The notes beneath the pieces were generated by a model, which saw only the letters and a list, made by a program, of their open reading frames with translations, searched no databases and was not told the DNA's origin. Position numbers and translations under genes: made by a program. A DNA stretch of 64,000 nt from Ruditapes philippinarum (taxonomy: Eukaryota). Every line of letters begins with the position of its first letter. Positions within the stretch are counted from its first letter, which is position 1. This document shows, in pieces, positions 31,701 to 63,700 of this stretch. The stretch is from NCBI RefSeq assembly GCF_026571515.1, contig NW_026861275.1:1-64000 (forward strand). The letters run 5' to 3'.

Positions 31701-34700
31701 TAGTTGAATAATGCGTAATATAGAGCAATAATGCTTTAATGTAGATGAATAAGGCGTAATATGGAATAGGCATTGTTGTATAACAAATTTTCACACTCAC
31801 CATGACCATGTTATCAACATAGAAACAAAAAAATCAAAACTTAACTTAAAAAATACAAGTAGATTTCAGGATATATTATGTATTCGATAATTTAATTAAT
31901 CTTAACTTCTTGTAATAAGAAAAAAAAGTTTTGTTACTTTGATATAAGAAATTGGTATTTACGATCAGTAGTACAAGTCTGTTGTATAGGAGAGCGAGAT
32001 GAAGTTGTTGACTCACTCAGTATGTAGGTTTTTGTAAATATTGATGTTGCTAAATATGCTGTCTTTGAATGAGAAGAAATAAGGGAATTTGGTAAAAGAC
32101 GAACGCAGGAAGATGGAGAAACGCCGGCATTTGTTGTTGATGCAAAATTTTCTGATGACGCAATTTGAGTAACACCAGAAGACTTTGCTGATCGCGACAA
32201 TATTGATTGATAAGATCCATATGATAAAGTTGAAGGCGATACATTAGATAATGTAGGTATAGAACTGGTGCCATATAATGGCGTTGATTCAAAAGCAGTA
32301 GAATACGATGTTAACTGTGGAGCAAAAGAAGATGTCGATTTTGTATTACTCGAAGACGTTTCTGATTGTAGAACAATAGATGATGTTTTCAAGTGAGAAC
32401 GGAGAGGAGAATGTATTGCAGACTGAGGCACGTCAAAAGATGTTGATAAATAGGGAAGGCTAGAACGTGTTGACACATTCTGTAGGTCAAAAGATGTTGG
32501 TAAATAGGAAACGGTAGTTGATGCTGCCAAGCGTGGTCTTTCAGATGATTTTGTTGAATATTGAACGCTTGAAGATGTTTCCAAAATACTGCCGTCAAAA
32601 GATGCTGATAGATACTGAACGATAGTGGATGTTGGCAGATGCTGTTTGGCAGTGCTGGAATATGTTTCCGACTGATGCAGTCCAGGAGATGTTGCTAAAA
32701 AGGGTACGCTTAAAGATAAAGCGAAATTAGGAACGACGGACGATGTTGTTGAACTCAGACTGCTTGACGATGTTCCCATATCAGAAGTGTCAGACGATGA
32801 TTTCAAATTTGGAACGCTTGAAGATGTTGACGTATGAGACACTTCTAAAAATGTTATAAGATATGGAACGCTTGTGGATATTGGCCAATGTGGTTCGCTA
32901 GACGACGTGGTTAAATTGGGAATACTTGAATATGCTGATAAATGATTTATGTCAGAAGATGTTACTAGAGAGTGAACATTTGAAGACGTTGCCAAATATG
33001 GTATAGTTGACGACGTAGCAAGATAAGGAACGCTGGACGATGTTCCAAAGTGTTGTTTGTCAGAAGAAGTTGCCGAATATGGTGTGACTAATGACGCAGT
33101 TATATAAGGAATGCTAGATAATGTTACCAAATCTTCATCAGAAGATGTTACCAAATATGGTATGGCTGATGACGTAGTTATATAAGGAATGCTAGAAGAT
33201 GTTCCAAAATGAGGTTCGTCAAAAGATGTTGCCAAATAAGGTATGACTGATGACGTAGTTAGGTAAAGAATGCTAGAAGATGTTCCTAAATGAGGTTCGT
33301 CGGATAATGTTGCCACATGAGGTTCGTCAGAATATGTTATCAAATCAGGAACGCGAGAGAATTTTGACAATAAATGTTCGTCAGATGATATTGTCAAATA
33401 ATTACAGCATGAAGATGTTGATAATTGAGGTTCGTCAGAAGATGTTGTCAAATGAAATATGTTAGATGTCGTCAAGTACTGGACGTTAGAAGATGTCAAT
33501 GTCGAAGTGCTAGTTGATGTCACTAATATATTACTGGTAGCAAAGGACACTAAATGAAGCAGATTAGAAGATTTTGTTGTATAAACGTCACTAGCTGTCA
33601 AATCAGATGGTGCAGAAAATGTAACTAGTTGGGGTGTAACGGATAAACTAGAATATATAGGTATATTTGATTGAGACACTTCATGCAGACTTGAAAACAC
33701 TGACAAAATATATAAACCTGAAGCTGTTGATTTTGTTTGAAAAACTGATGATGATTCGCTCAATCCGACTTCATTCGTAGAAGTGTACAAAACTGAAGAT
33801 TGGAGGATAAATGGTGAAGATGTAATCGTATTTAAGGTTTCGCCGACAAGGTTTGATGTTAACAAGTAGTTTATATCCATTGAAGTAGATATAACAATCT
33901 TTTTGGAAAGTGACGGCATCAATAAAGTCAAAATGTTAGAAAACGGGGGTTTTTGGTAAAAAAATGTTGATATTTTTCAGTTTTTTAATGTTGTGGGTTT
34001 AAAAAGGGTTTTTCCCTTTATTTAGCGTGCAATTCCAAAAAACTAAAATAATATTTTTTTTTATTTTCTTTTAAAAAAATGTGAAAAACGTTTTTTCTTT
34101 TTATTTCATGTTAAAAAGAATTTCAAGTAAATTTAATTAATTTAAAAAACAGGGTTTAATTTTCCTAAATCCTTTTAAATAAGAGGGTTCCCTTTAACTA
34201 CACACTCACCCAAAACAAAAGGAAACATTTTATGTTATAGGATTAATCATTACACGAAATTTGTTACTTAAATTCAACACTTATTAAATAAATCTATTTG
34301 TCCATAGGGGGTTATTAATTTTTTAAAGGAGTTATTTAAAATTTAAAGTGAATTTAAAACTCATTTTTTATTTCATTTTTTGTAAAAATGATTTGATATA
34401 AAGGGCCAAAAATTTTTTTTGACATTGGATATTTTAAAAATTCAATAAAAATAAACTAAAAAAAATTATTTAAAAAACGGGCATCAATATAAAGAAATTT
34501 TTAAAAAGGGGGCACATAAAATTTTAAACATGAAAAAGAAAGAATTCTCAATTTCTAACGTTATTTGTGCATTATAGAAATTCTTTTATTACCGGAAACA
34601 ACTACTTCACAAAATGATAATGTGTCTTCATTTCCGCCATGTTTTGATATACGGATATAATTTCCAAAAACCGGCGTACTACAGTTTACGACAACACTTG

Positions 34701-35139
34701 TTCCTGGCTCTAGTTCAATAGAAATGTAGGAACAATTCTGTTTCCCAGCATTCCAAGCAATTTGCCATCCTTCGTCACCGAAGTTTTCTAAGACATCAGC
34801 AACCCAACAAAAAATTTTTCTAATTTTTAAATTTTTCCGCTGAAAAATCACAAACAAAGCTTATTTTCTTTTTCAAAAAAAATTTTTTTTTGAAGCACCT
34901 CAATAAATCGTTAAAAAGGGCAAAAATCCGACACATTTTAAAAATTTTTAAATTTTTTAGAAAGCGAGTTTTAGAACATGGTTTTTTGTTTTCTTGATTA
35001 TATTTTTCCATTTTTTTAAAAACGTAAAACCCTGATTTTAACATATCTCCCCAAAATTTTTGTAACCTTCCAATATGTAGCTTTACAATGGTACGTATAA
35101 CATTTATCCATGGATCTTTTTTTTTTGCACACAAAAGCT

Positions 35140-37907: not shown

Positions 37908-38784
37908 ATGTTTTAAACATTCGCGACAATTTTGCACGAAGCGTTACAAAAGTAGATTGGTCTTAACTTGTTACTTCTACATTTTCGAAATTTTTTTTTA
38001 CAAATGGTGCATATAATAAATCACTTACGGCATGTTTTACATGACTCTGGTTTTGTAATAGTAACGGAAGAAACCGGATAACTATTGTCAAGTTGAACTT
38101 GCCACCAGGGGTCCTCCTCATTTACCGTTTGTGCGCATGAACCGGAAATAGATCCTGATCCCAATTTTTGGGCCCATCAACTGCTTTTTTCAAGCCGAGA
38201 ATGGACAAATTCCCCGTTAAAAACCGAAATAAATTTTTTTCAATGAAGGTTCTGGGGAATGAAAAACCCAAAAATGAAAGAATAAAATTGTTTTTTAATA
38301 CAGTTTTTTTTAATAGATAAAAAAAGGGGTATTTAAATGTCATTCTGTTTTGTGTAAATTAAATTTCAATTTCGGGAAAAAAAAGAAATCACAGAAAGAA
38401 ACAGTATCCCCAAAGCAAAAAACCCTTAAAAGTTGAAATTTTTTATAAAAAAAAGGGGCAGAAATTTCCCCGTTCCCAAATGAATACACAGCCGGTGTGT
38501 AAGAATCAATTGATTCGGGATTTCTTTGCTTGGTGTCATCTAATATTATCAGAGCGGCAACAATTTGTCCTTGCTTGGTGTCACCCAATATTGCTAGAAC
38601 GGCAACAATGTGTACATGTAGAAGCTATAACAATATTAACAATAAACACATACCCTTGATAAGTACTTGACTGCCATACATCTAAAACCGGAAGTGATGA
38701 TGTCACGCATTGATTGCCCAGGCCTGAAAGATCACGAGATAGATAGTGGTTGTGATTGTCAATATTATTATGATTTTCATTTGA

Positions 38785-43949: not shown

Positions 43950-46900
43950 CTATACGAAATATAAACTGTTTCGTCTCTCTGAAAATAAAGTTAAAATGTG
44001 GTAAAGTTGGTAGTTTAAATATGTGGTAAAGTTGGTAGTTTAAATATGTGATAAAGTTGATAGTTTAAATATGTGGTAAAGTTTGGTAATTTAAACATGT
44101 GATAAAGTTGATTGTTTAAATATGTGGTAAAGTTAGTAGTTTCAATATGTGGTAATGTTGATAGTTAAAATATGTGGTAAAGTTGGTAATCTAAATATGT
44201 TTAATAGTTGGTAGTTTAAATATATGGTAAAGTTGGTAGTCTAAATATGTGGTAAAGTTGGTAGTTTATATATGTGGTAAAGTTGGAAGTATGAAAAGGT
44301 GGTACAGTTGGTAGTGTAAATAAGTGTTTTAATTGGTAGTTTAAATATGTGGTAAAGTTGGAAATCTTAAAACATGGTAAAGTTGGTAGTTTAAACATGT
44401 GGTGAAGTTGGTAGTCTAAATATGTGATAAAGTTGGTAGTTTAAATATGTAGTAAAGTTGGTAGTTTAAATATGTGGTAAAGTTGGTAGTTTAAATATGT
44501 GGTAAAGTTGGTAGTTTAAATATATGGTAAAGCTGGTAGTTTAAATATGTGGAAATGTTGGTAGTCTGAATATGTGATAAAATTGATAGTTTAAATATGT
44601 GGTAAAGTTGGTAGTGTAAATATGTGGTAAAGTTGGTAGTTTAAGTATGTGGTAAAGTTAAAAGTTTAAATATGTGGTAATGTTGGTAGTTTAAGTAGGT
44701 GGTAAAGTTAATAGTTTAAATATGTGGTAATGTTGGTATTCTGAATATGTGGTAAAGTTGGTAGTTTAAATATGTGGTAAAGTTGGTAGTCTAGGAATGT
44801 GGTAAAGTTGGTAGTTTAAATATGTGGTAAAGTTTGTAGTTTAAATATGTGGTAAAGTTGGTAATCTTAAAACATGGTAAAGTTGGTAGTTTAAATATGT
44901 GGTAAAGTTTGTAATCTCAATATGTGGTTAAGCTGGTATTGTAAATATGTGGTAAAGTTGGTAGTTTAAATATGTGGTAAAGTTGGTAATCTTAAAACAT
45001 GGTAAAGTTGGTAGTTTAAATATGTTGTAAAGTTGGTAGTTTAATATGTGGTAAAGTTCATAGTTTAAATATGTGGTAAAGTTGGTAGTCTAAAAATGTG
45101 GTAAAGTTGGTAGTTTAAATATGTGGTTAAATTGGTAGTTTAAATGTGTGACAAAGTTGATAGTTTAAATATGTGGTTATGTTGATAGTTTAGATATGTT
45201 GTAAAGTTTGTTGTCTCAATGAGTGGTAAAGTTGTAAGTTTAAACATGTGGTAAAGTTGGTAGTTTAAATATGTGGTAAAGTTGGTAGTTTAAATAGATG
45301 GTAAAGTTGGTAGTTTAAATATGTGGTAAAGTTAATTATGTATGTGGTAAATATATCTAAGAATGTAAATTAAAATGTGACACAGTATGAATGTAAATAT
45401 TTGGCAACGTGTGATGAAAGTTAAATTGTGGCAAGAGATATAGGTTCAAATGTGGCAAAATATAAAAAAAATAAGTTAAAATGTGTCAAAGTACGCAAGT
45501 CATGTTTGTAAGTTGAAATAAGGTTAAGTATGTAAGTTAACAGTTGGCAATGAAGTTATGTTTAAAAAAGGCAAAGTATGCAAGTTAAAATGTGGTAAAA
45601 TTTGAAAAGTTAAAATGTTGTAAATCATATAAGTTAAATGTGTGCAAAGTGTGTAAGTTAAAATGTGGTAATTATGTAACTTAAAAATATGGTAAATTAT
45701 GGAAGGTAAAAGTGGTAAAATATATAAGTTAGAATGCAGTAAAGTATGTACGATGCATAGTAAAACATGTTCTTTGAAGTGGCTGGTTGATGAAATTCAT
45801 ATAAGAAGAAGAAAGAAAGAAAGAAAAAAAGAAAGAAAGAAAGAATATTTGTATTGACGTGAAAAGAGAAGATGACTTACCAACAGGAGTGAGAGATCTT
45901 CCACCTGTAAAGAAACAAACAGACTTTCAATACACAGTAAGAACGTATTTATTACTGTTTAAACCCCTTGAAGTATTGTAGAAATTAACAGTTAAATCAA
46001 TCAATAAATTAATTAATTAATTAATTAATTAATTTATTAAGCAATTGATTTTATCGTCAATAAATTAATTCAATTCTTTAGTTATGTTGATTTATAAATA
46101 CATCGATTAATAATCATGATAATAAATTAACAACAAATATATGTTTTAATAATTATAATGATAACAATAATAATAATAAATCAACAACGAAAATATTTTT
46201 TACTGCCAAATTAACATAAGTAATTCGGACTTAATGAAAAGTTGCTTTTAAAGGACTCAATAAATATTTTCATATAACATTTAAGTTAGATTTATATAAA
46301 TCAGACAACGTTTGAAATTGGACGTGGTTTTTATTTGCAATTACGGTCACCTAATAGACAGAACTTGCATCTATTTATAAGAAAACTTAGTTGATAATAT
46401 GATGTAGAAGATAATTCACAAACCTGGTACGCTGGGATGAGAATGGAATTGTTGTGATCGTGGTGGTTGGCTATTTTCTACAGGAGTAGAATCGTCCACC
46501 ATGTTGAAATCGCTCTCCGAGTCCTGATCACTTTGTCTCCTGTATTATATATAACTTAGTTATCTCAAACCCCCAAATTTGTATAATCAATTTGTCCTGT
46601 TTTGAATTTGGCAATGTCTCTAGCTTTTTTATGGGGTGTCAATATCAGTGAATTGTTAAAATGAATCACGCATGTGCAGATTGGCAGGACTTAAAACTAT
46701 GCTTATTTAAAATAAACGCGTGAAATTCAGTAACTTATTATTTGAAATCAACCAAAATCGTGATACAAGTCAAATATAGATGTATACATTATGATTTAAT
46801 ACTGTCACAATTATACAAAACAATTTGAAGAAGAAGATGAAAAAGGTACAATGGTTACCATACCTATTTCTGGCAGCTTGGATTTTTGGTTTACAACCTC

Positions 46901-49900
46901 TAATTTTCCTCAAGAAAAAGATCAGACTTCCTACGGCAGCGAATACAAATGGAATCGCACTTAAACCTGCATACTTTTCAAGATTATTGCTGGAATCTGA
47001 CGACTCCTCAGATTTCGATGCTGCTTCGGTACCGAGCAATACTTGTAATGGTGAAGAAGAAGTAGGCGAGGTTGTTGATGTTAAAGTAGAAGTCGGCGGA
47101 GTTCTCGCTGTTGAAGTAGAAGTCGGCGGAGTTGTTGTTGTTGAAGTAGTAGTCGGCGGAGTTGTTGTTCTTGAAGTTGTAGTAGGCGGAGTTGTTGTTG
47201 TTGAAGTAGTAGTAGGCGGAGTTGTTGTTGTTGTTGTTGAAGTAGTAGTCGGCGGCGGCGGAGTTGTTGTTGTTGAAGTAGTAGTAGGCGGAGTTGTTGT
47301 TGTTGAAGTAGTAGTAGGCTGAGTTGTTGTTGTTGAAGTAGTAGTAGGCGGAGTTGTTGTTGTTGACGTAGAAGTCGGCGAAGTTGTTGTTGTTGAAGTA
47401 GTAGTAGTCGGCGGCGGAGTTGTTGTTGTTAAAGTAGTTGTGGGTGGAGTTGTTGTTGAAGTCGGCGGAGTTGTTGTTGTTGAAGAAGTAGTAGACAGAG
47501 TTGTTGTTGTTGTAGTAGGCGGAGTTGTTGTTGTTGAAGTAGTAGTAGGCGGAGTTGTTGTTGTTGAAGTAGTAGTAGTCGGCGGCGGAGTTGTTGTTGT
47601 TGAAGTAGTTGTGGGTGGAGTTGTTGTTGTTGAAGTCGGCGGAGTTGTTGTTGTTGAAGTAGTCGGCGGCGGAGTTGTTGTTGTTGAATTAGTAGTAGGC
47701 GGAGTTGTTGTTGTTGAAGTAGGAGTCGGCGGCGGAGTTGTTGTTGTTGAAGTAGTTGTGGGTGGAGTTGTTGTTGTTGAAGTCGGCTGAGTTGTTGTTG
47801 TTGAAGTAGTAGTAGGAGGAGTTGTTGTTGTTGAAGTCGGCGGAGTTGTTGTTGTTGAAGTAGTAGTAGGAGGAGTTGTTGTTGTTGAAGTAGTCGGCGG
47901 CGGAGTTGTTGTTGTTGAAGTAGTTGTGGGTGTTGTTGAAGTCGGCTGAGTTGTTGTTGTTGAAGTAGTAGTAGGAGGAGTTGTTGTTGTTGAAGTAGGC
48001 GTAGGCGGAGTTGTTGTTGAAGTAGTTGTGGGTGGAGTTGTTGTTGTTGAAGTAGTAGTAGGCGGAGTTGTTGTAGTGGGCGTTGTTGTTGAAGTAGGCG
48101 TAGGCGGAGTTGTTGTTGTTGAAGTAGTAGTAGGCGGCGAAGTTGTTGTTGTTGAAGTAGGCGTAGGCGAAGTTGTTGTTGTTGAAGTAGTTGCGGGTGG
48201 AATTGTTGTTGTTGAAGAAGTAGTAGACAGATTTGTTGTTGTTGAAGTAGGCGGAGTTGTTGTTGTTGTAGTAGTAGTAGGCGAAGTTGTTGTTGTTGAA
48301 GTAGTAGTAGGCGAAGTTGTTGTTGAAGTAGGCGGAGTTGTTGTTGTTGAAGTAGTAGTAGTTGGCGGAGTTGTTGTTGTTGAAGTAGTAGTAGGCGAAG
48401 TTGTTGTTGTAGTAGGCGGAGTTGTTGTTGTTGTTGAAGTAGTAGTAGAAGGCGGTGTTGTTGTTGTTGAAGTAGTAGTAGGCGGAGTTGTTGTTGTTGA
48501 AGTAGGAGGAGTTGTTGTTGTTGAAGTAGGCGTAGTTGTTGTTGTTGTTGTAGTAGGCGGAGTTGTTGTTGTAGTAGGCGGAGTTGTTGTTGTTGTTGAA
48601 GTAGGCGGAGTTGTTGTTGTTGTTGAAGTTGTAGTAGGCGGAGTTGTTGTTGTTGAAGTTGTAGTAGGTGGAGTTGTTGTTGTTGTTGAAGTAGGCGTAG
48701 GCGAAGTTGTTGTTGTTGAAGTAGTAGTAGGCGGAGTTGTTGTTGTTGAAGTAGAAGTAGGCGGAGTTGTTGTTGTTGAAGTAGTAGTAGGCGGAGTTGT
48801 TGTTGTTGAAGTAGTAGTAGGCGGAGTTGTTGTTGTTGTTGAAGTAGGCGGAGTTGTTGTTGTTGAAGTTGTAGTAGGCGGAGTTGTTGTTGTTGAAGTA
48901 GAAGTCGGCGGAGTTGTTGTTGTTGTTGAAGTAGTAGTAGGCGGAGTTGTTGTTGTTGAAGTAGTAGTAGGTGGAGTTGTTGTTGTTGTTGTTGAAGTAG
49001 GCGGAGTTGTCGTTGTTGAAGTTGTAGTAGGCGGAGTTGTTGTTGTTGAAGTAGAAGTAGGCGGAGTTGTTGTTGTTGAAGTAGTAGTAGGCGGAGTTGT
49101 TGTTGTTGAAGTAGTAGTAGGCGGAGTTGTTGTTGTTGACGTAGAAGTAGGCGAAGTTGTTGTTGTTGAAGTAGTAGTAGGCGCAGTTGTTGAAGTGGGC
49201 GTTGTTGTTGAAGGTGTAACTCCGACATACAATGTCAATGTTGCAGATTCACTTTGACCATCGTTATAACAAGTTACTGTTATTGTAAATATTTGGTCAT
49301 CACTAAGCTCTTTTTTCTTTGCCCTTATTTCATCACCTATAAAATAATCTGTAAACTGTACAACAATTTTTATATATCGTATATTGAATAAAATTATGAT
49401 GGTTTATGTTCTTTTTTAATTTTTTGTAAATGAAAATTGATATGTGTTGATTAAAGTATATTGGAGGGATTACCATTGATTACATATCACCCCGAGTTAG
49501 AACAAACAAACAAAAAATCGAAATTTGTAAAAATGTCATTTTCATTTAAATTCTGCCGATGTTCTGGGTTTACCGATCAAAGAATCGGGACACATTTGTG
49601 TGTGAGCGCCACATCTATTTATTTAAGTATTTATCATACAATTTTTGCATACAATGTTTGTGATAAATATTGCCACGCTTTAAATGTTTTACTTAATTTA
49701 TGTTAACCATCAATCAATACGGAACACCATGCCGGTTATTCATAACCATCTCGGAAATCATAGCCAACCTAAAAAGTTGAGATTGTCATCATTAAAACGG
49801 GTAAACCGAGTCAATTTCCTTAGAAAAGCGTTTGAACGAACAAGATTGATGATCCTGGTTGCACTGATGCTCTATGAATTATATATAGGAGATATTGCGA

Positions 49901-52900
49901 GTTTCCACGAGTTGACGTTTATTGTACACGTTGTAATCAGTTAAAAGAAATAAAAATAATAATACGCACCTACAATCAGAATCTGTTTATTGCTTTCAAT
50001 ATCACAAAAACTATTGATAGAAGTTGAGCAGCCATTGGATATATCCAGTATATACAGGGACATAAATCCGTTACTTTCTGTTGTTGTATCAAGGCTTATC
50101 GTCATGGGAAGGTTGTTGAAAATCGGCGCCTTAAAATAAAACAATGTACATTGCTCAATCATAAGTGAGGCTTTTTCTACATTTCAGAAATATGGCGAAG
50201 TTATAAAAAAGTTCCATACATTTATATAATTATGATACCTGACTTACAGATATTGAAAATTGGGGAACCCTTGCAATGACATGTTTAAAGGGTCTCTGGA
50301 TTTTTGTATAACTAGATGTATGTCTAGACCAATAACTCATGTACAAATTTTCACATCATTCGCTCACTCCGTTTCCCAGAAATAATCAATTTTATTGTGC
50401 AAATTGGCCTAAAAATGAAAACCGTTGCAACGCTTTTCATCCAAATCGGTCAAAAATCGCATGAAAATCGATTATCAATTTAATACCCGTTATATTTATA
50501 TATCATCTATTGTTTGGTTTCAAATTTAAGTGTACCACTTGATTTAAGAAAAAAAAATCAAAATTTATTATTTTAGGTTTGGACCTCTGTGGAGTTCCTT
50601 TAATAGAGAATGCAACATTAATATACTCAATTACTTGGTAGCGTCCATGGTTTGACATTTTATGCCTCGTTTTCTATAAAAGGTCGAGGAATACAAAGAA
50701 ATCCACGAAATGTTTGCAAGTGTTGTAGAAACTCTACAAAAAGTGGAGGGGTGGGTATAGGCTGCGACAATTTGTTCCTCAACAAGTTTATTTCATACAA
50801 TTACAACATAAAATTTCGCGGACTTTAAAGTTGCCCGCGACCTTTTATAAACTGACGGTAAAATTTCTCACGGGTTTAAAATGTATAAAACAGGGACAGT
50901 AAAATAATAGCAATATTTGAAATATATCCACCATTCTATTCATGTTTTATATTTACCGTTTCAATAATATTAAGAGTGAGTGTCCCGGATGTTGATGCTG
51001 CATCCTGGTCGGTAGCAATAAAGTTGAGAATATGTTATTCCCCAGGTGTGAGACATGTTGTGACGAGTAGTTGTTCTACAAGAAAATAATTCAATAACAA
51101 ACTTCATAACTTTAAATTTGAAGAGATATACCTATAAACTACTTTCACTGATATATGTCAGCTTAACATTGGCTTTATTTCATTTACAACCGAGTATTTA
51201 TGCAAGTATTCGCAGTGCTAAATCTATAGTTAATAATAATAAATTCACAGTCTTGCAAATTGTCAAATATTGCATTAAAATCGTATTTTTTAAACATATA
51301 ATTTAGGTAAGGGTGGAGTGGAATATCATGATCAAGAAAATTAGACAACTTGTACGCATTACGTTTTCCTGTCACGTAACTCGAATTACTTTCCCTGATA
51401 GTCTATTATAACTTGTAATGCAACGAAAGATTTAGAATAATAATCATCTTCCCAGTTTAAATTTAGATCCTATTTTAACCGTTTATTATCAACTTCCTAA
51501 TTCTTAAATCAAGGTGACAAAAATAATCTGTGTGGTCAATCAGTACAGATAACTATGGCGATCTGGTTCAAAACTTGTTATGTGCATAATCCAAACCATC
51601 CGTGGGGTAAATGATATTGTTAATCAAGTTTTCATATTGAAAGTCAATGTGATCAATTAGTTTAAAACGATCATAAGAGGGTAAAAAATTCAACGTATTG
51701 AAACCCGGCATGATATTTAACCAAAATATATTCTGTGTTAGAAAAAAACCCACATATTATGTTATAATATAAAAAAAAGAAACAATGTATTAAACTTATA
51801 CAAAAATGCTACTGCAACCAGGTGTACAGGAACAAAAACTGAATGTTGCATGAATTGACAAACATTTAATTTCCTACGCAGCTTTAGAAGAACTATGTCA
51901 ATGAATTTTGACACGTCGATACTTTGTAAATATGATCAATGTTTGTCAATACATAAATATAATAAACCACTGACAACAAAACCAATCGTATTGCTTAATT
52001 GATAATGATATTGTATCTAAAAATGTTAAAACTTTATCAAAGTTAGAAAATCACAATATAAATACTATCATTTGAATTAAACCGTATTTGTTGTATTCTC
52101 ATAGATATTTTACAGGACATGTCTTGAAAGAGTCCTGTACATATTCCCCGAATCCGGATAATTTACTTCCCGTTATTTCGTGAACCCGGACAACTCCCAT
52201 TCTTTTTATGTTCTGATCCCGGAAAACTCACTTCCCGTTATTGCCTTAACCCTGACAATTCCCTTCCCGTTATATCCTGAACACTGACAATTCCCTCAAG
52301 ATATTTTCGGAACCCGGGCAACCCCCTTCCCGTTATTACCTGAACCCGAATAACTCCCTTCCTGTTATTTTTTGAACCCGGACAATTCCCTTCCCATTAT
52401 TTCCTGAACCCTGACAATTTCCCGGACATATCACTTCCGGTTATTTCCTGAATTCTTACAATTTTCTTCCAGTTATTTCCTGAACCCGGATAATTTTCCT
52501 CCCGTTACTTTCTGAATCCCCGTTATTTTTTTAACCCTGACAATCTCCCTTTTGATTTTCTTTTAACCCGGACAATACCCTTTCCGTTATTTCCTGGACG
52601 CGGACACTCGGACCCGGACAACTTCCTTCCCATTATTTCCTGAACCCGGACAATGCCCTTCTGGTTACTTTCGGAACCTGGACAATTCACTTCCCCTTTT
52701 TTTCTGAACCCGGACACTCTCAGTTATTTTCTGAATTCCCTTCCGCTTATTTACGGAACCGGGACAGTTCCCCTCCCGTTATTTCCTAAACCCGGACAAT
52801 ACCCCTCCCGTTATTTCCTGAACCCAAACACTTCCTTTCCCGTTATTTCCTAAACCCGGACAACTCACTTCCCACTATTTCCTGAACTCGGACAATTCTC

Positions 52901-55900
52901 TTTTTTTAACCCCAGAAAATTCACTTCCCGTTTTTTTCCTGAATCCGGATAAATTTCCTCCCGTTACTAAATGAAACCGGACAATCTCCCATCCGTATTT
53001 TCTGAACCCGGACATCTCCCTTCAAGTTACTTTCGGAACCAGGATAATTTTCTTCCTAATATTTTCTTTTACTGTTCCTAAACCACAAAAAATCCCTCCC
53101 CCGTTGTACTGAATCCGGACAACGATTTTACTGTCATTTTTGTAACTTTATATCCTTCTTCTTACTTATAACACTAGACAAGTATATATTATTGACTTAA
53201 GTATATTTGTATTGAAAGAAGAATTCGTTAAGGGGTATCCAAGTGCTAATCTTTTAACGACCCACTCTACACTCAACCCCCACCCCCTAATTAATATCGT
53301 TGCATAAAAAAGGAACTTTAAGTGGTTCAACTTAATTCTTTTTTTAAAAAGTTGAGTGCACATACTTGACAAGAGCTTTTAGCCATTCTATAGTTCAAGT
53401 ATTTTAATGAACATAACATTTCATGGATATGTCATAAATATATATTTTGTTAATTGCTTTATTTGATATAAATCTCTAATGACTTTACTCATTTAGGCAT
53501 TTACTTGTATTTACACTCGTCACTTAATATAACAAAAGAGAAGTCATAAATTATCGTAAATGTGGATACGATTAAAGTGAATGTTGAAAGAAAAAAATGA
53601 CTATAGACCAATTTTTGTATTGAATGATTCCCATTTATCATGTTGAACCATTCACATGTATTGGGCAGTCATCGCAATATAAAATATATTTTATATGACC
53701 ATACTGTGAATATCCATTTATCTGAACATTGTTGAACATAGGATGTTTATCCCGTACTAGAATTTTGGCTTATTTTTTTCTGATTACAGATGGTCAAGGT
53801 CACCACCTTTAAACTCTCCGTTGATCATTTCATTTTCTAATTGATCTTATTTATTATATACTTATCAATGAAATATTGAGAAATATGTATTAATGAAATA
53901 AAATGAGTATTTTGATTTTCTATATTTTCACTGTAAAAATTATTGCAAATAAGTTGTATGTTTATTATGTACTCTTAATATGTTATCTTCTCAAAATAAA
54001 GTTATTATATGTATTATCATTATATTTTTCTGTATTTTCACTGTAAAAATTTAGTTTTCACTGCAGTGAAACATATTTTCCGTATTTTCATAGGTGTCTT
54101 GCCCGACTACTTTCTTCTAAATTCTGCCAATACACATAATTTAACAGAAATTCATCCAAATTGTAATGCCAAAATAAAAATGTATATAATTAACGGAAAA
54201 TTCAAGTTTTTTTTCTCTAAATACAAGATTATATATTCATTTTGTGGTATGGAAATAATCATATTTCACTCGTGGCTACCGTCACTCTTGAAATATTTAT
54301 TTTTTATATACCACTCGATGGAAATTAATACTGTATTTAGAAAAGAAACCTTAAATATTCTCTATTTAACTTTGTTATTATTTTTTTATTTTTATAGTTT
54401 TCATAATTGAACAAATTATCTTTATTATACATGTATTAACGTTCAAGTGTTACCGGGGTATTATAAACAAGCGTTTTTTCATGTAAATGTACAATACTGT
54501 TGGTGATGTTTAAATTCATTTATAGCATATAAATTCCTGGGCTTCCAAACATATAATTAATGATAACTTTGTTACATACATAATAAATGCATATTAAAGC
54601 AGCACGTCTCCAGATTCATGCTAATTTTCATGAAAATTTTGAAACTGTAATAAAACATTGAATATTGTGAATTAAACAAAGTCATATTTTTTTATATTGC
54701 AAGCAGCATTGACAAACCGTGTAAATTACCAAAAAAGAGGCAAAAAACATGCAAAAATATTCCTTACTTCGTTAGTCACGCAGTAAAAATATGGTGAAAA
54801 ATACTGCAAAATCATTGATAATCGTTCATAAAGTGGAAATTATTATTTATATCTTGAATCTTTTTACTTTTGTTAAATTATCTGCACTTTTTTCTCAAGT
54901 TTTTTGTCTTGAAATATTCTTGTTCATCCGGCGGCATGCAGCTTTAAAAGTGTAGTAAGATTTGATTAAAAAAGACTTTACTAGTAAATTATATTGAAAG
55001 AACTATAGGGATCGACTACAAGCATACAATAACATGGCTGTGCAAGGGCATGTTTTTAAAAGTTATCTAATTGCTCATAAGTTTTGTACATCTTCTATAT
55101 GTACGTAAATGTATTTTCCGCATACGATAAAACAGTTTTGCTTAACACAATTGTTCTTTTTACTTCAAATCAATTAGAATTAAAGATAGGTTAAAAGAAG
55201 TCATGTGATAGGAACAATATCCAATATTTAAATAATTTTAGTCGCATCATGACAAAACCAACATAATGGGTTTGCGACCAGCATGGATCCAGACCAGCCT
55301 GCGCATCCGCGCAGTCTGATCAGGATCCATGCTGTTCGCTTACAAACGCTATAACACGTAGAGAAACTGATAGCGAACAGCATGGATCCTGATCAGACTA
55401 CGCGGATGCGCAGGTTGGTCTGAATCCATAATGGTCGCAAACCCATTATGTTGGTTTTGTAATGAAGCGGCTCATTTATTATTTCAATTTACTTATTCTT
55501 CACCTATAAAACAGGAGCTAATATTAACGTAATTCAATAGCAATAAGTACATGTAATTCATGTTTAATTATTTATCCTAAGTATATACATTTCAATTTAT
55601 GTAGACAGTGACTTCTTTTGATTATACTGCATGGTCACACACAGGACCAATTTATCTTGTCTTATTTCATATCCAAGATGACATAAAAAATAATGTAAAT
55701 TCACCTTTTTTTCCATCGCGGGTGTATGCTAAATGTCCTAGAAAGACAGTTTTATAGTACGTTTTGTATTTGTAACTTAAGCAAATTTGAAAAAAAAAGT
55801 TTAGAATAAATATTACAAAAGCGGTAACTAATGAAAATACAAAATTATGTATAAGCTAAATAAACAATATCAAAACATTGTGAAAACTTCAGCGACACCT

Positions 55901-58900
55901 TATTGTAACTTTGACCTTTTGCAAGTTTGGCTGAATCCTTATTTTTAAATATACCGTGGTACTTTATTCTGCAAACACCAGTCATTGTTGAAGGACAACT
56001 TGCTGTATTTTGTACAAATATAATTAAAGTAGGTGGTAGCTTCTGTGTCTATCACGAATACCCCTACTCATCGATTTGAATAAAAAGGTTTACGTTTTTG
56101 GTTTTGTTTTCTTTTTATATTTTTATGTGATTTTTAATAACATGTTTTATTATATACTAATAATGAAAGATTGAGAAATATTGATGAAATAAAATTCGTA
56201 TTTTCATTTTCCATATTTTCACTGTAAAAATTTATTTTTCGCAGCAGACAGGTACGTATATTAACATATATATACCTGCTGCAGAGAAAAAACATTTTCC
56301 GTATTTTTACTGGTGTCTTACCGGACTACTTTCTTTTAAATTCAGGCAATTAAGATACGCAAAATTAAAAAATAGAGAAAAATGTATAAAACAAAAAGAA
56401 AAAACAAGTTTTTTCCCCTATAAAAACAAGATTGATATTCATCTTCTGATATGAAAATTATCATATTTCATACCACTCGATGAAAGTAAATCCTGTATTT
56501 ATTGAAAATCTTGAATATTCTCTATATATTCAAGATTTATTCCTCTATTTATGTTTTGTTACATTATGTTATTTATATAAAGTTTTAGACTACTCGTTGC
56601 CTTGTGTGAAAAGTGTTTAACCTATTCACAATAAAACATGCGCGGTAATAAATTCTATGGAACGCCGTGACTGTCTTATGCTATAAATATTTTTGCTATC
56701 TTCTGAAATGATGGTATTATTTTGTCATTTAAGCATATTAACATGTGCAATTTACATCAAAACTTGTCTAAAGACAATGCTGACTTGTCCAAACAGCATG
56801 TTAACTTGTCAAATAATCATTATGACATGTGCAGGCAACATGGTAACTTGTCAAAGTATCATGATGACTTGTGCAAACGACATGTTAACTTGTCAAAATA
56901 ACATGATGACTTGTGCAAACGACATGTTAACTTGTCAAAATGTCATGATGACATGTGCAAACAGCATGTTAAATTGTCGAATTATCGTGATGACATGCTC
57001 AAAATACCTTAACAAGTTAACATATGTTTTGCACAAGACATCACGATTCTTTGACAAGTTCACATGTTGTTTGTACAAATCATCATGATAATTTGACAAG
57101 ATAACATGGCATTTGCACAAGTCATCACGATACCTTGACAAGTTAACATGCTGTTTGCACTTGTCATCATGAAATTTTGACAAGTTAACATGTCGCTTTC
57201 ACAAGTCACCATGATACTTGGACAAAATAGCATGTTGTTTGCACATGTTATCACGATGGTTTGACAAGTTAACATACTGTTTGCACATGTCATCATGAAA
57301 TTTTGACAAGTTAACATGGCATTTGCACAAAATATGATAAACAAGATCGACAAGGAAAGGCGGCATTCAATGAACGCAGCCCCCATCCGACACAGCAACA
57401 AGCGTCAGCGGCAAGGAGCCCAGGAGGACTCCAAAGTAAAAACAGGACAGGGCACAAGGCAGAGTACGGGCAGGCAAACCACTACATCAGAATACATAAT
57501 TAGTAACTTATAAGGAACTAAAACAAAACAAATAAATGATTTAATATAAGGCCCATTATGTCAAAAGGCACAGGGGAAGGGGACATGAGACACGGGGAAG
57601 GGGGGGGGGGATAAAATAAATAAAAACTAGGGACAAGGGAAGATACTTACCGTAGACGAGAAACAACAAGAGACACGAGCAAAAGTGTCACCAAATCAGT
57701 ATAAAACAACATAGACATACATCTGAGGAACACAGAGGGGCGCCGCCTTGGAACGGTCAGCAGCATAATAATGACTACTGGGGAGTTTAAACCGGTTAAT
57801 GGTGCACCAAACCTCGCTCTTAGCCCCACCATGTTCCTATAAACGAGACAGTGTAAATAAAATGAATCCCCGCCAAGTGAAATTCTAACAGTTGTTATGG
57901 TTACAAAAGGTTAAATAAGTAAAACACCAAAATGATCATGTAGAAACATATAAAAGTAAAACCCCAATGACCATAACAAAAGTACTCGATGTCTTAAAGG
58001 AAGACAGAGCAACAAGAAAATCACCCACAAGGGCCCGACGAAGCAAGACAGAAGACAAACATTAAGGCAATTCAGTCCCAAAGGGCTTTAAGAACTGTCC
58101 ATCATATAGTCTCCCACTTGGCCCGTCAGATGTAATCAAAAGAGGAAAGCGTAGTGTCCAACTGTAAATGGGTTGAACACTAAGCATGCGGTATGTCTTA
58201 AGATAGTAGGGTCATAACCCCTTTTAATAAAACGTTTTATAATTTTAGTAAACACAACAGAAAAATTACAATGACCCAAGATCTTACGAAGTTTGTAAAC
58301 AACATCACCGTAAAAATCAGGCTGGCTAATCCCTTGTCGCAGAAGTGTTTTTAGATCACTATTGAATTTTGAAATTAAATCAAAGTTACGATTGTAAAAT
58401 TTTGTAAAATATTTACGTAATTTATAATAGCGGTAGCCCTGTTTTAATAGCTTACCGGTAATGAAAATATTTCGCTCGTTAAAATCCTTTACGTCGCTAC
58501 AAGCTCTAGCAAATCTAATTAACTGAGATATATAAACTCCGTAAGATGTTGCGTGCGGTACGTCTCCATCCAAATGAGGATAATTTACTATACTAAAATC
58601 AAAGTCATCTCTTTTATCATAAATTTTCGTGTGAATCGAATTGTTTTTGATAGTGATATGAAGATCCAAAAATGATGTAGTTAAATTTCAAGAATTCGTT
58701 TTATTAAGTTGTAGCTCCGTAGGATAAATATTAGACACCATTTGATCAAAAAACGAATTATCTAAATTAAAAATGTCATCATTACACTTGGACAAGTTAA
58801 CATGTCGTTTGCACAAGTCATCATGATACTTGGACAAGTTAACATGCTGTATGCACATGTCATAACGATAATTTGACAAGTTAACATGCTGTTTACACAT

Positions 58901-60715
58901 GTCATCATGGAATTTTGACATGTTAGCATGGTATTTGCACAAGTTATCATAATACTTTGACAAGTTAACAGTACGTTTTGACATGTCAGCATGATACAAG
59001 ATAACATGTCATTTGCACAAGTCATCACGATTCTTTGACAAGTTCACATGTTGTCTTCACAAGTCATCATGGTAATTTGACATGTTAACATACTGTTTGC
59101 ACAAGTCACCATGATACTTTGACAAGTTAACATGCTGTTTGCACATGTCATCACGATAATTCGACAAGTTAACATGTCGTTTGCACAAGTCATCATTATA
59201 CTTTGACAAGTTAACATGGCGTTTGCACAAGTCATCACGATAATTCGACAAGTTAACATGTCGTTTGCACAAGTCATCATTATACTTTGACAAGTTAACA
59301 TGCTGTTTGCACATGTCATCACGATAATTCGACAAGTTAACATGTCGTTTGCACAAGTCATCATTATACTTTGACAAGTTAACATGGCGTTTGCACAAGT
59401 CATCACGATTCTTTGACAAGTTAACATGCTGTTTGCACATGTCATCACAATAATTCGACATGTTAACATGTCGTTTGCACAAGTCATCATTACATTTTGA
59501 CAAGTTACCATGTCATTTGCACAAGTCATCATTACCCTTTGACAAGTTAACATGTTGTTTGCACAAGTCATCACGATACTTTGACAAGTTAGGATGTTGT
59601 CTGCACATGTCATCATAATCATTTGACAAGTTAAAATGTTGTTTGTACAAGTCAGCATGTTCCTTTGACAAGACATGATGTAAATTGCACATGTTAACAA
59701 GCTCAAAAGACAAAATAATATCATAGTTTCACAAAATAACAAAAACTTTGATAACATAAGACAGTCACGGCGTTCCATAAAATTCAGTGTAAAACAAGTT
59801 GAAATTGACTTTACCACGCTATTTTGTTGTCCGAAATCTTGCCCAAAATGTTCGTTTATTTACGGGAATCACGCTCATAGTTCAAGTATTTTCGTACAGT
59901 GTGCATGCAAAAAACGCTATGTCAAGGCATTACAGCCATGCTCAATATTACTTCATCATATCAGAAAATGAGTGTAAAATGTCTTTTGCAGCACCCAATA
60001 TGAGAAACCATTTATATAATGCTGATAAATGTCTTGAATGTTAAAAATTCGAATATCACAAAAAAAAAATAACGTGTTTTTCCCCGAATGATTGAGTTTT
60101 CTTTGCAATGAAGTAATAGACAGAAAAACGAAATAACTGTGTACAGTAACAGTTTATACCATATTTATGTATTTTAAAACTTTGAATACTTACTGTCATT
60201 AGAACTATCAATTTCAAAGAAGCCGGAGCCCGTTGTCATGGAAACAATATTATTTACGTCGTCATTAGTTTTGAATGAGAAGGCGACGTCCCCCACACCA
60301 AGGCTGCTGCTGATTTGAGCGCTTGCATCAAGATTCGAAAACGACGGAACTGATATAACTAAATAAATAATAAATAGAAACGTACGATGACGATAATAAT
60401 AATAATAATCACATTAACAACAATAACAATGTAAATAATTAAACAACATAGAATCAATTACAATAACAAATTTAAAGGCAATAATTGTGAAATGTATTAA
60501 ACTACAAAATATGTCTTCTTCCTAATTTAAAACATTGAAAATTTTACTTGAAAACAAAACTGTACATAATAAGAATAACTACAAGAGTTAACCTAACAAA
60601 TGTAAAAAAGCTATATAAAAGTAATAAAAATAAAAATAATAAAAGGATGATACTTGTTCTTACCATAAGAAAATGTCAAAATTGTCAAAACAATAACATG
60701 TGCAAATATATGCAT
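43950..60715 (-). CDS. Cadherin-like/mucin single-pass membrane protein with a C-terminal PDZ-binding motif (8 exons; one in-frame TAA in exon 3)
   Basis: Exons, all GT-AG with matching phases: 60715-60664 (signal MHIFAHVIVLTILTFSY); 60358(or 60349)-60194 (PSFSNL…FFEIDSS); 51075-50957 (QLLVTTCLTPGE*HILNFIATDQD…TLTLNIIET); 50129-49970 (APIFNNLP…); 49336-46864 (…FTITVTC…TLTLYVG + ~720 aa T/P/S + TM AGLSAIPFVFAAVGSLIFFL + RK); 46539-46424; 45904-45881; 43978-43950 (ERRNSLYFV*). Confidence 0.8.
43990..45335. repeat. 25-bp satellite (~53 units) in the last intron of the cadherin-mucin gene
   Basis: Unit TTTAAATATGTGGTAAAGTTGGTAG; a degenerate continuation runs to ~45750. Confidence 0.95.
47055..49215 (-). 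repeat. Coding low-complexity mucin repeat (PPTTTSTTTT)n
   Basis: Plus-strand GGCGGAGTTGTTGTTGTTGAAGTAGTAGTA units; open minus-strand frame. Confidence 0.95.
50289..50599. mobile_element. Kolobok-like non-autonomous element (opposite orientation)
   Basis: TTAA|AGGGT…TTTGGACCTCTGTGGAGTTCCT|TTAA. Confidence 0.7.
52130..53125. repeat. Diverged ~32-bp satellite
   Basis: Unit approximately CCCGGACAATTCCCTTCCCGTTATTTCCTGAA, ~30 copies. Confidence 0.9.
54598..54943. mobile_element. Kolobok-like non-autonomous element (AGC..GCT)
   Basis: TTAA|AGCAGCACG…GCATGCAGCT|TTAA. Confidence 0.7.
55239..55473. mobile_element. Sola-like palindromic MITE
   Basis: ATTT TSD on both sides; same family as 22718-22952. 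Confidence 0.8.
57331..58780 (-). mobile_element. 5'-truncated Penelope-like retroelement (Naiad-type RT C-terminus) inserted in the foldback arm
   Basis: DDIFNLDN…IYPTELQLNKTNS*…FLDL…KIYDKRDDFDFSIVNYPHL…SYGVYISQLIRFARAC; no C-terminal GIY-YIG; interrupts the 42-bp array between GCACAA (57330) and GTCATC (58775). Confidence 0.85.
58051..58114 (-). promoter_or_regulatory. SECIS-like hairpin (type II), with the 3' quartet GA changed to AA
   Basis: GGAGAC-UAU-AUGA-UGGACAGUUC-UUAAA-G-CCC-UUU-GGG-ACU-GAAUUGCCUU-AA-UGUUU-GUCUUC: helix I, AUGA, helix II, AAA and apical mini-helix, folded by eye. Confidence 0.5.
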
Positions 60716-63700
60716 ATTTTAAAATACTTCCCAAGATTAACATTATCACTTCTACATTTTATTTCTTTTTTCTACTATTACGAATGTTTACGGTTTTTTC
60801 GTATTTGTTTTTTAAATGCGAGGCCCTGACGTCAGATAAAAAAATTGAAGCGGAACAAGACATAAAACGAATGTTATCTACCCATGCGCCAAAAACAGTT
60901 AATACATTTTTAATTTTCAATGGATTTGCCCTAAATGAAAAGATGAACAAGTGCGTATTTAGCGTGGTAATTATGTGTTAATTAATGCGTGTTTCACAAA
61001 CGAGTATGTAAGGATGTTTAACTTTGCAGGGGGTCTGAATTCTGCACGTAAAAGAGAAAAAGTCTGCACGGCTTATTCTGTTATAAAAAATATCTGTTTT
61101 TCTCATAGTTTTGGACGGATCTTGTAAAACAATTTTTTTCCCGTTTATAGCAAGTTAAAATTGCCATGCGTTTTATCAACTTTGCATTATATATTTTTTG
61201 CACAAATCTTACAATTTTAGTTTGGTTTTATGAAAAGAATCAGAGGAGCCATTGATCTGTTTACATTAAAACTCCGCCTGTTAACCTATATAAAGAACAG
61301 AATGTTTCTCATTTGTCTGTTTTTGGTTTTGAAAGGGGCACCATACTATGGCCCAAAAGCATAAAAAATATAAAAATCAACATTTTTACATAGTTAAACA
61401 GGATAAAATATGCGGAAATAATTAAAAAATATATATACTCTTTACTGCATCGATTTCTCTCTCTCTCTTTTGGGGGGGGGGGGAAGGGAAGGGTGTGCAA
61501 TCTTAGCCAGTTTTTAGTAACGCTTAATTTTGCACAGTTGGAATAGTTTTTCTACAGAATCAAATTAAGCGAATGTTCTTAAATTTTGTACGCAAGTTTT
61601 TGGTCTAGACCTTCATCAAATATGTATAGGTATAATAATCTAGGAAAAATAGTTTAAATCCCGTCATGTCAAAAAACACAAGGTAGCCTCTTTTTTAATA
61701 CCACTTTATTTCTATTGTCCTTGATTAAATTAAAAGTAATATGAAACATAACAGCATAACCTCTCCTCGTCCACATATTTCTATAAGTCGTACACTTTAT
61801 TTCATCAAAATTCTGATTAAAATGCTATAATTATAAGTCAAGACCCATAATACAGTACGGTCTCCCGCTACATAATTTGTTTTGATTTTTTCTAAAGTTT
61901 ATTCAACGTACACACTTCTTATGTTTACATAGGTAGAAATTATTCATACTATGGCCAGATAATGCGTCGATTTATCATGAAAAGAAATAAACTCCATCTT
62001 TTATCCGCTTCAACCATTCAAATATATTATATATATACAGTAAATTAATAAAGTTAAAACTTAGAAAATACGGCCATAGTTTGAAACATGAATGCACGAT
62101 ACACGTGTATATAATTTAGTCTTCATACCTGAATAAAGTCTGAATTGGAACAATTACAATGGAAATGTTGTGACAGCTCATTTGGATTATAAAACATTTA
62201 AAACCGATTGATAAAAACATTTTTCACAACTTTTTGTGCACTCTAAAACGGACACTTATCATCAATAAGAAGTCGGCCAAATCTGGGAAGACGTACTGGT
62301 ATCTCGGGTCAAATATAATAAAAAGTTTCATTTGATTCAATTCATAGTAAATCATAGTACAAATTGTGGTAACTTCAATTGAGTATTTATGTACATTTTT
62401 ATTCATCGCAATGTGATTAATAAAATGATAAAAAACTAATTTCATACAATTTATTAGAAATAAACTCATATTAAGCAAATGTCTAAAATGTTTAATTAGA
62501 CCGGGACAGGCATCTAAGTACATGTACACGACACCACGTCTCAGAATGATGAACATTTGTTTCAAGTTATACTAAAACCCACCATAAATGTAAGACAAAA
62601 TTTGAACATTTTCGGTCGAAGACTGTCTTGCATAATCATTCACTTCCGGTCGATGATTACCTTTGTACGCTAACACGGTTTTTGTATATTTATTGTTCAA
62701 TAAATCTAAATCTTAAATCATTCGAGCTGTAAATAATTGGGGTTTTCACTCTTCGGGACAAACACTTTTGAATTTGCGGGGAGGAGGTTTTCAGTTTACT
62801 CTAACTTGCTCAAAATATTGCTAATGGACGTAATTCTTCTCGCTGTCGGATTGAAACTTGAGTTCATATCATAAGGTTATGTGTTTATCAAAAAAAGGTC
62901 ACACGTTATAATAATATTGTTTTAATTTTGGCTATATACTCGTCTCTTGATGGACAATTAGGACAAGGAACAAAAATATTTGAACAATTACAGGGAAGTA
63001 ACTCTTATAAGTGACTGGCTATTATACCCAGCGTACATAAACATAAATTATCTTGGTCTTGCTGGAATCGTCAGATTCGTCTCTTAAGTTTAACACTTTA
63101 ATTTGCGATAAAATATAATAACATGTGTATAAAGCTGCTATGAATGTCACCCCAGTGTTGTATTTTTAGTTCTTCGAAATCATTGAATTCTAATTATTTC
63201 AACCTTGACGATTGAATCCTGCATAAGGCGGTGTCATGGAGCGTGACATATGTTGCACGTTTTATAATCACTCATAATCAGGCTTAATTCATCCCAGTTT
63301 GCCATTTTCATCTTTTTTCCTCGGTGGGCCCACCTTTTCCAGAATTGTTATACTATGTAATTTCCAATGACACGTGATCTATATCTTCGTTCCGACAAAT
63401 ATGATATACTTTATATAAAAATTCTTGTTTAAGTACTACTGTCTTTACTATGATAACTATAAATAATTGTATGTAACGCTCAAGCCGGTGCTAGTGGGCG
63501 TGACGGATGTTGCACGTTTTGCATTATCCCTCATTTACAAACGCAATCAAACCGAATTTGAAATTTACATGTAATTTGGATTTGATCAATACTTCCGTGG
63601 GTCGCTCTTTCTCCAGATTTCCATATAAGAAGGTAATGAACATTAACACTGATTTAGTATTAATTTGATGCTATACAGTCAAATTATAGATTGGCATAGT

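What the first reader, a model, noticed from the sequence alone, without database searches (positions are those of the whole stretch)
43950..60715. Invertebrate cadherin-mucin-PDZ receptor with CDHR5 (mu-protocadherin)-like architecture
Seen: signal peptide, two divergent cadherin-like repeats (PxFxNL linkers, FEID, AxD, TLTL strands, no DXNDN Ca2+ linker), ~720-aa Thr/Pro stalk, TM helix and a tail ending RRNSLYFV*. The tail is a PKA-type RRxS site next to a class II PDZ motif, and includes a 24-nt micro-exon. Known: vertebrate CDHR5 has cadherin + mucin + TM + PDZ motif and links microvilli via harmonin. Inference: an analogous or homologous apical glycocalyx or microvillar linker in a mollusc. 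The ORF track shows it only as fragments.
Basis: partly seen in the sequence, partly recalled or inferred. Interest (0 to 1): 0.7.

Follow-up and report, generated by a model that had tools for sequence, protein, structure and literature searches.

The report
Clam membrane mucin with cadherin-like head
This clam gene is real and spliced and encodes a predicted cell-surface protein with a long, likely sugar-coated stalk under a small, probably cadherin-derived head; it resembles the vertebrate gut protein CDHR5 in layout but fails that family's defining features, and the copy in this assembly carries a premature stop.

Summary
The gene is real: eight minus-strand exons, all GT-AG and in phase, 1,045 codons. 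RNA contigs from 2 of 6 RNA or untyped runs laid splice exons 3-4-5 as predicted; the other five junctions, including the micro-exon and the PDZ-type end, are untested. Contigs of two other samples read Glu there, so this copy is a null allele or an error. Allele differences are mostly synonymous (12 of 19). Head repeat 1 aligns end to end with cadherin repeats, weakly; repeat 2 scores no better than a fibronectin control. It is not a CDHR5: two repeats not four, no calcium linker, no EC1 disulfide, a different tail, and a 723-residue stalk. Best reading: a type I membrane mucin with a calcium-free, cadherin-derived tip and a PDZ-type anchor, convergent with CDHR5 in layout. It is single-copy here, with one 56%-identical relative elsewhere. 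Earlier scan notes report a short mucin-cadherin elsewhere in this genome and a cadherin-mucin in another animal (unchecked). I found no paper on it in eight searches.

The parts
60664..60715 (-). Exon 1: ATG and predicted signal peptide (residues 1-17)
   Evidence: hydropathy, GTAAG donor; not tested by RNA
60194..60358 (-). Exon 2: first half of head repeat 1 (PxFxNL ... FEID)
   Evidence: 94% copy on haplotig C1215; 56% relative P0004
50957..51075 (-). Exon 3: second half of head repeat 1 (AxD, TLTL)
   Evidence: its 3' part and donor are in RNA contig X20; best hit of a blind six-frame scan of the window with a cadherin profile, E=0.25
51035..51037 (-). In-frame TAA at codon 86 in this assembly; GAA (Glu) in contigs of X1 and X5
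49970..50129 (-). Exon 4: first half of head repeat 2
   Evidence: both borders confirmed by RNA contigs
46864..49336 (-). Exon 5: second half of repeat 2, stalk, TM helix, start of tail
   Evidence: acceptor confirmed in X19 and X20
47049..49217 (-). Thr/Pro/Ser stalk, 723 residues, 78% Thr+Ser, ~72 copies of a 30-nt unit (PPTTTSTTTT type)
46911..46973 (-). Predicted transmembrane helix (residues 954-974), followed by basic residues
   Evidence: hydropathy
46424..46539 (-). Exon 6: acidic/Ser/Pro cytoplasmic segment
   Evidence: not tested by RNA
45881..45904 (-). Exon 7: 24-nt phase 1-1 micro-exon
   Evidence: not tested by RNA
43950..43978 (-). Exon 8: RRxS-hydrophobic (PKA-type) site and class II PDZ-type end (YFV), stop
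   Evidence: AATAAA at 43941; not tested by RNA

Best explanation
This is a transcribed, spliced clam gene for a predicted type I membrane mucin whose likely O-glycosylated 723-residue stalk would hold a probably cadherin-derived, calcium-free two-domain head well above an epithelial surface, while a PDZ-type tail end would likely tie it to a cortical scaffold. Shown: exon structure, splicing of exons 3-4-5, stalk composition, absence of the calcium motifs, and mainly synonymous allele differences. Inferred: signal peptide and topology (hydropathy); O-glycosylation and a rod of up to about 180 nm (0.25 nm per residue is a recalled figure); a beta-sandwich head; PDZ binding and control by phosphorylation of Ser1041. 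Its main job is most likely glycocalyx: spacing, shielding, and presenting a binding tip to an unknown partner. The CDHR5-like order of parts most likely arose independently. The assembled copy carries a nonsense codon and is more likely a real null allele than an error (about 60:40, inference).
For: In-phase 8-exon model. Spliced contigs in X19 and X20. 12 synonymous of 19 listed differences in exons 3-5 against an expected share of 0.23, p=1.8e-4. Repeat 1 against a profile of 35 cadherin repeats from this genome: 11.5 bits, 1 of 1000 and 0 of 3000 shuffles as high, HHalign probability 53% alone and 74% with P0004, 91 columns; fibronectin-III control -1.3 bits. The only PDB hit of exon 2 was CDHR2, E=0.39. 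No DxND/PE/DRE. Class II-type end in 3.7% of tail shuffles; end plus RRxS-hydrophobic within the last 12 residues in 0.04%, motifs chosen after the fact. Precedents: MUC17 is held apically by its PDZ motif (PMC6705488, passages); podocalyxin induces microvilli (PMC1796660, listing only). The next gene downstream is another head-stalk-TM protein.
Against: The fold was not shown: the exon 2 half-domain model had pLDDT 58 and no significant Foldseek match. With a second cadherin profile (Pfam-trimmed repeats) repeat 1 fell to 5.0 bits, 28 of 3000 shuffles, HHalign 1-10%. Repeat 2 scored 4.5 bits (59 of 3000) on the cadherin profile and 3.1 bits (29 of 3000) on the fibronectin control. Pfam found no cadherin in any exon. 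The three-row exon 2 profile ranked ribosomal L5 above CDHR2. Exon 2 against the haplotig differs at 4 non-synonymous and 2 synonymous codons. Raw RNA runs X21 and X23 had no reads on exon 3 or the start of exon 5 and no exon joints. The tail exons have no RNA or cross-species support. In MUC17, phosphomimetic and phosphodeficient changes in the PDZ motif did not alter localisation.
Confidence: 0.6

Rival explanations
1. It is a convergent CDHR5 equivalent: the head binds a partner in trans between neighbouring microvilli or cilia of gut, gill or mantle, and the tail binds a PDZ scaffold, forming a calcium-independent brush-border link.
For: Same order of parts as CDHR5. CDHR5 ends also vary between class I and class II. 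Exon 2's one PDB hit is CDHR2 (E=0.39).
Against: No calcium linker, whereas CDHR5 EC1-2 is canonical. No tissue or localisation data. No partner gene found nearby; neighbours are a lectin-stalk gene and LEO1. A densely glycosylated 723-residue stalk is more typical of anti-adhesive mucins (own knowledge).
Confidence: 0.17
2. It is a fast-evolving surface receptor or decoy for microbes or parasites; the stalk presents a variable head, and null alleles persist.
For: Near-orphan: one relative among 1.84 billion representatives, none. Seven non-synonymous differences in the head, three in adjacent codons 134-136. A nonsense allele. A lectin-domain stalk gene lies next door.
Against: Differences are mostly synonymous. 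Single copy, with no paralogue array.
Confidence: 0.13
3. It is a true, deeply diverged orthologue of vertebrate CDHR5 (Cr-3 subfamily).
For: Layout only. CDHR5 repeats are poorly conserved even among vertebrates (10.3% average identity), so a link could be hard to see.
Against: 2 repeats instead of 4, no calcium motifs, no strand-A cysteine, unrelated tail. No match to CDHR5 chains in 6 PDB searches. A survey of echinoderm cadherins lists ten, none of them CDHR5 (PMC10734073, abstract and passages).
Confidence: 0.04
4. It is a decaying pseudogene or a chance set of exons.
For: In-frame stop at codon 86; no spliced reads in two deep raw RNA runs.
Against: Glu at codon 86 in both other samples that cover it; spliced RNA contigs in two studies; synonymous excess; a 2.47-kb repeat exon without frameshift; a 56% relative.
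Confidence: 0.06

Closest known systems
CDHR5 (mu-protocadherin, mucin-like protocadherin), Cr-3 subfamily (PMC8691648, PMC10916864; passages read)
   Same: Order of parts: cadherin(-like) repeats, membrane-proximal Thr/Ser/Pro tandem repeats, one TM helix, short tail with a PDZ-type end.
   Different: 2 degenerate repeats versus 4; no calcium linker versus a canonical EC1-2 linker; no C5-C73 disulfide; stalk of 723 residues versus 4x31; tail of 71 residues without poly-Pro runs versus 154 Gly/Pro-rich residues; no detectable sequence match.
Transmembrane mucins such as MUC17 (PMC6705488, passages) and podocalyxin (PMC1796660, listing only)
   Same: Long PTS stalk, single TM helix, PDZ-type end with a nearby phosphorylatable serine.
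   Different: No SEA domain (only 25 residues between stalk and TM, no Pfam hit); carries a folded N-terminal head; class II rather than class I end.
Dystroglycan (PMC4582122, passages)
   Same: Ig/cadherin-like domains and a mucin region in one type I protein; present in molluscs.
   Different: No S6 domain, no second IG domain after the mucin region, no MAT-NU module, no dystrophin-binding tail; mollusc dystroglycans are well conserved and have short mucin regions.
Atypical cadherins in general (PMC10734073, passages)
   Same: At least two repeat-sized units, a TM helix and a variable tail without catenin sites.
   Different: Repeats lack all calcium motifs and fall below Pfam detection exon by exon; repeat 2 is not shown to be a cadherin repeat.

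Membership tests
CDHR5 | Four EC repeats | tested here: not met
   Two ~93-residue units between signal peptide and stalk; no stop-free decoy exon among 5 candidates in intron 2; CDHR5 count
CDHR5 | Canonical three-calcium EC1-2 linker (XEX-DXD-DRE-XDX-DXNDN) | tested here: not met
   No DxND, PE or DRE; only AxD/DxD in repeat 1; motif
CDHR5 | EC1 disulfide between strands A and F (C5-C73) | tested here: not met
   Repeat 1 has a single Cys (80), none in strand A
CDHR5 | Membrane-proximal mucin-like tandem repeat | tested here: met
   723 residues, 78% Thr+Ser; about six times longer than human CDHR5's
CDHR5 | Gly/Pro-rich ~154-residue tail with poly-Pro motifs | tested here: not met
   71 residues, 10% Pro, 4% Gly, one PP
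CDHR5 | C-terminal class I or II PDZ-binding motif | tested here: inconclusive
   YFV fits class II by consensus (3.7% of shuffles); last exon not confirmed by RNA; binding untested
CDHR5 | Sequence or tree grouping with CDHR5/PCDH15 | tested here: inconclusive
CDHR5 | Located at microvillar tips, binds CDHR2 in trans | not testable with these tools
   No tissue labels or localisation data
Cadherin superfamily | At least two EC-fold repeats | tested here: inconclusive
   Repeat 1: 11.5 bits, 0 of 3000 shuffles on one profile, 28 of 3000 on another; repeat 2: not above the fibronectin control; whole-domain fold not modelled
Cadherin superfamily | Calcium-binding inter-repeat motifs | tested here: not met
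Transmembrane mucin (functional class) | Signal peptide, long PTS region, single TM helix | tested here: met
   (composition and hydropathy)
Transmembrane mucin (functional class) | Dense O-glycosylation and apical location | not testable with these tools
   Inferred from composition
SEA-type mucins (MUC17 and kin) | Juxtamembrane SEA domain | tested here: not met
   25 residues between stalk and TM; no SEA hit in exon 5
Dystroglycan | IG1-S6-mucin-IG2-MAT-NU-TM order with dystrophin-binding tail | tested here: not met
   No domain between stalk and TM; definition

The most novel reading that the evidence does not exclude
Clams independently built a CDHR5 look-alike: a calcium-independent cadherin-fold adhesive tip on a ~180-nm mucin rod, anchored by a phosphorylation-switched PDZ motif, that links microvilli of gut, gill or mantle. 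A natural null allele segregating in a farmed species would make this directly testable.
Probability: 0.15. Interest if true: 0.62.

Novelty: new variant of a known kind. Interest (0 to 1): 0.32.

Why it matters
If the head proves to be a cadherin fold, this is a case of a mollusc joining calcium-free cadherin repeats to a mucin stalk and a PDZ-type tail, the layout known from vertebrate CDHR5, and so a candidate for convergent design of apical surface proteins. The gene is missing from the protein collections searched, probably because it is split over 17 kb and carries a stop in this assembly. A natural null allele, if real, would give a ready genetic test. As it stands, head-stalk-TM proteins are common in this genome (one lies next door), the function is unknown and the CDHR5 link is by layout only, so interest is moderate to low.

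Tried and rejected
Pfam on single exons: no cadherin. Word-index protein searches with the start of exon 5, with exon 2 and with a three-row alignment: 0 of 41, 0 of 68 and 0 of 7711 candidates scored. Full HMMER search: 7 hits, of which 6 are sums of weak repeat matches in unrelated repetitive proteins (judged spurious) and 1 (P0004) is a real relative. Two metagenome scans found no locus, not even P0004's own. The ESM Atlas gave no answer. Exon 2 folded alone gave three strands at pLDDT 58 and no Foldseek match, which is uninformative. Own-genome searches with exons 3, 4, 5 and the last exon found only this locus, and exon 2 found only the haplotig. An exon-start DNA pattern gave 62 matches, mostly one repeat element; the 6 non-repeat sites examined were not cadherin-like exons. 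Direct alignment of repeat 1 with repeat 2 was not significant (540 of 2000 shuffles). Runs X9 and X10 held only unspliced pieces. X21 and X23 gave no exon joints (about 4% and 6% of each run read; tissue unknown). A 33-nt in-frame candidate exon at 55737-55705 was dropped because its donor is not kept in the haplotig.
Full report
Setting. The window is contig C9762 of a 1.41-Gb, 15,874-contig genome. A mollusc is implied by the run list. Earlier AI notes on the same genome call it the Manila clam; I did not check this.

Gene model. Reading both strands and fixing borders by script gives eight minus-strand exons: 60715-60664, 60358-60194, 51075-50957, 50129-49970, 49336-46864, 46539-46424, 45904-45881 and 43978-43950. 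All seven introns are GT-AG and the phases close without adjustment, giving 1,045 codons. The parts are a hydrophobic N-terminus, two units of 93 residues each split in the middle by a phase-1 intron, a 723-residue stalk (472 Thr, 144 Pro, 92 Ser; about 72 copies of a 30-nt unit), 25 linker residues, a TM helix and a 71-residue tail. Signal peptide and TM helix rest on hydropathy only.

Codon 86 in exon 3 is TAA (51037-51035), and no alternative acceptor rescues the repeat. The assembled copy would make 85 residues. One contig each from two other samples, X1 and X5, reads GAA there. Both also differ from the assembly at the same dozen nearby sites, so the assembly holds a divergent haplotype. 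A substitution in an otherwise frameshift-free 3.1-kb reading frame looks more like a real nonsense allele than an error, but the haplotig C1215 shows indel-type errors in exon 1, so error remains possible. The RNA contig that enters exon 3 stops at 51005, short of the codon.

Expression and splicing. Contigs of X19 (RNA on record) and X20 (RNA guessed), from two studies, join exon 4 to exon 5 at the predicted bases; X20 also joins exon 3 to exon 4. X9 and X10 gave only unspliced pieces. Two raw RNA runs, X21 and X23 (about 4% and 6% read), gave no exon joints and no reads on exon 3 or the start of exon 5, so expression is probably restricted or low; tissues are not given. So 2 of 7 introns are confirmed. 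The micro-exon is the only candidate passing a simple splice filter in 2,445 bases and is in frame, while 0 of 5 candidates in intron 2 are stop-free. The last exon is the nearest in-phase acceptor and has AATAAA nine bases after its stop, but two stronger acceptors lie 2.4 and 3.5 kb further on.

Constraint. Of 19 listed differences in exons 3-5 (7 from the cut table, 12), 12 are synonymous against an expected share of 0.23 (p=1.8e-4). Exon 2 against the haplotig goes the other way: 4 non-synonymous and 2 synonymous codons. Overall the gene is functional in the species.

Relatives. The gene is single-copy apart from the haplotig. A full HMMER search of 1.84 billion representatives gave 7 hits; only P0004, an unnamed 81-residue fragment from a 1,457-base contig, is real. 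It is 56% identical to exon 2 and the likeness ends where exon 2 ends, which suggests an orthologous exon in a related animal. No full-length relative was found; these searches are weak for 50-residue queries.

Is the head cadherin-like? Pfam finds nothing exon by exon. I built profiles from this genome's own cadherin and fibronectin-III repeats. Repeat 1 aligns over 91 columns with a profile of 35 whole cadherin repeats: 11.5 bits, 1 of 1000 and 0 of 3000 shuffles as high, HHalign probability 53%, or 74% with P0004; the fibronectin control gives -1.3 bits. With a second, Pfam-trimmed cadherin profile the score falls to 5.0 bits (28 of 3000). Repeat 2 gives 4.5 bits (59 of 3000), no better than on the fibronectin control (29 of 3000). 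Exon 3 is the best hit of a blind six-frame scan of the window (E=0.25), and exon 2's only PDB hit is CDHR2 at E=0.39, though the three-row profile prefers ribosomal L5. A model of the exon 2 half alone was uninformative; the spliced domain was not modelled. Verdict: repeat 1 probably cadherin-derived; repeat 2 inferred only from its length, its PxFxNL start, its TLTL end and its intron position. The calcium motifs are absent.

How it likely works. The composition points to a densely O-glycosylated rod, up to about 180 nm at 0.25 nm per residue (recalled figure). It would lift a small calcium-independent head above the cell surface. The end YFV fits a class II PDZ motif and RRNSL fits a PKA site (consensus from own knowledge). 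In shuffles of the tail, such an end occurs in 3.7%, the kinase site in 4.4%, and both close together in 0.04%, with motifs chosen after seeing them. MUC17 is a precedent for PDZ anchoring of a membrane mucin, and also a warning, since altering its phosphosite did not change localisation (PMC6705488, passages). I put about 60% on a glycocalyx-type membrane mucin with a binding tip, 17% on a convergent microvillar link, 13% on a microbe receptor or decoy, 6% on a pseudogene and 4% on CDHR5 orthology.

Comparison with CDHR5. It works like CDHR5 in layout but is not a member: four of the defining features tested are not met (repeat number, calcium linker, EC1 disulfide, tail type; PMC8691648 and PMC10916864, passages). 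PMC10916864 ties the CDHR5 tail to EBP50/E3KARP and recovered harmonin from the CDHR2 screen. Dystroglycan is excluded by domain order (PMC4582122, passages). An echinoderm survey lists ten cadherins, none CDHR5 (PMC10734073, abstract and passages). I read no supplements; the CDHR5 repeat alignments in the supplements of PMC8691648 could bear on the homology question.

Novelty. Eight paper searches listed no study of a bivalve cadherin-mucin membrane protein; the library lacks most subscription papers and I saw listings only for most hits. Earlier scan notes describe a short mucin-cadherin in a cluster elsewhere in this genome and a cadherin with a mucin spacer in another animal (unchecked). 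The next gene downstream is itself a lectin-domain, Ser/Thr-stalk, TM protein. The design is therefore a recurring one. I rate it a new variant of a known kind, interest 0.32.

Noticed in passing
window 38176-30682, minus strand: A second head-stalk-TM gene: an F5/8-type galactose-binding exon (PF22633, E=5e-7), a second similar-looking exon at 34860-34564 without a Pfam hit, a 680-residue Ser/Thr-rich frame and a C-terminal hydrophobic helix. Frameshifts and homopolymer-rich text near 38200 and 34000-35100 suggest local consensus errors.
   Followed up: partly
window about 15500-26600, plus strand: LEO1 (PAF1 complex subunit): three Pfam Leo1 exon matches at 20763-22212, the only ones in the genome, with a Ser/Arg-rich repeat exon at 15522-16448.
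   Followed up: partly
window 8000-9464 and 9745-12804, plus strand: Two LINE-type retroelements with reverse transcriptase matches, both interrupted by stops; the second has a PHD-like finger upstream.
   Followed up: partly
window 58136-58687, minus strand: A 183-residue frame inside intron 2 that reads like a retroelement fragment, sitting between two arrays of a 42-bp tandem repeat (56754-57331, 58775-59672); no Pfam hit. The haplotig lacks about 3.1 kb here (56655-59780).
   Followed up: partly
window 43991-45333: A strand-skewed 25-bp satellite (54 copies) in the last intron, between the micro-exon and the terminal exon.
   Followed up: no
window 50300-50600: A very high-copy short repeat in intron 3; summed contig depth in DNA runs is hundreds of times the flanks and it draws most RNA reads in this stretch.
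   Followed up: no
G000:C1215:408-8345 (L003): An uncollapsed second haplotype of window 51407-62650, 80-92% identical, holding exons 1-2 and ending just before exon 3.
   Followed up: yes
window 50130-50132: The exon 4 acceptor is AAG rather than YAG, yet it is used in the RNA contig of X20.
   Followed up: yes
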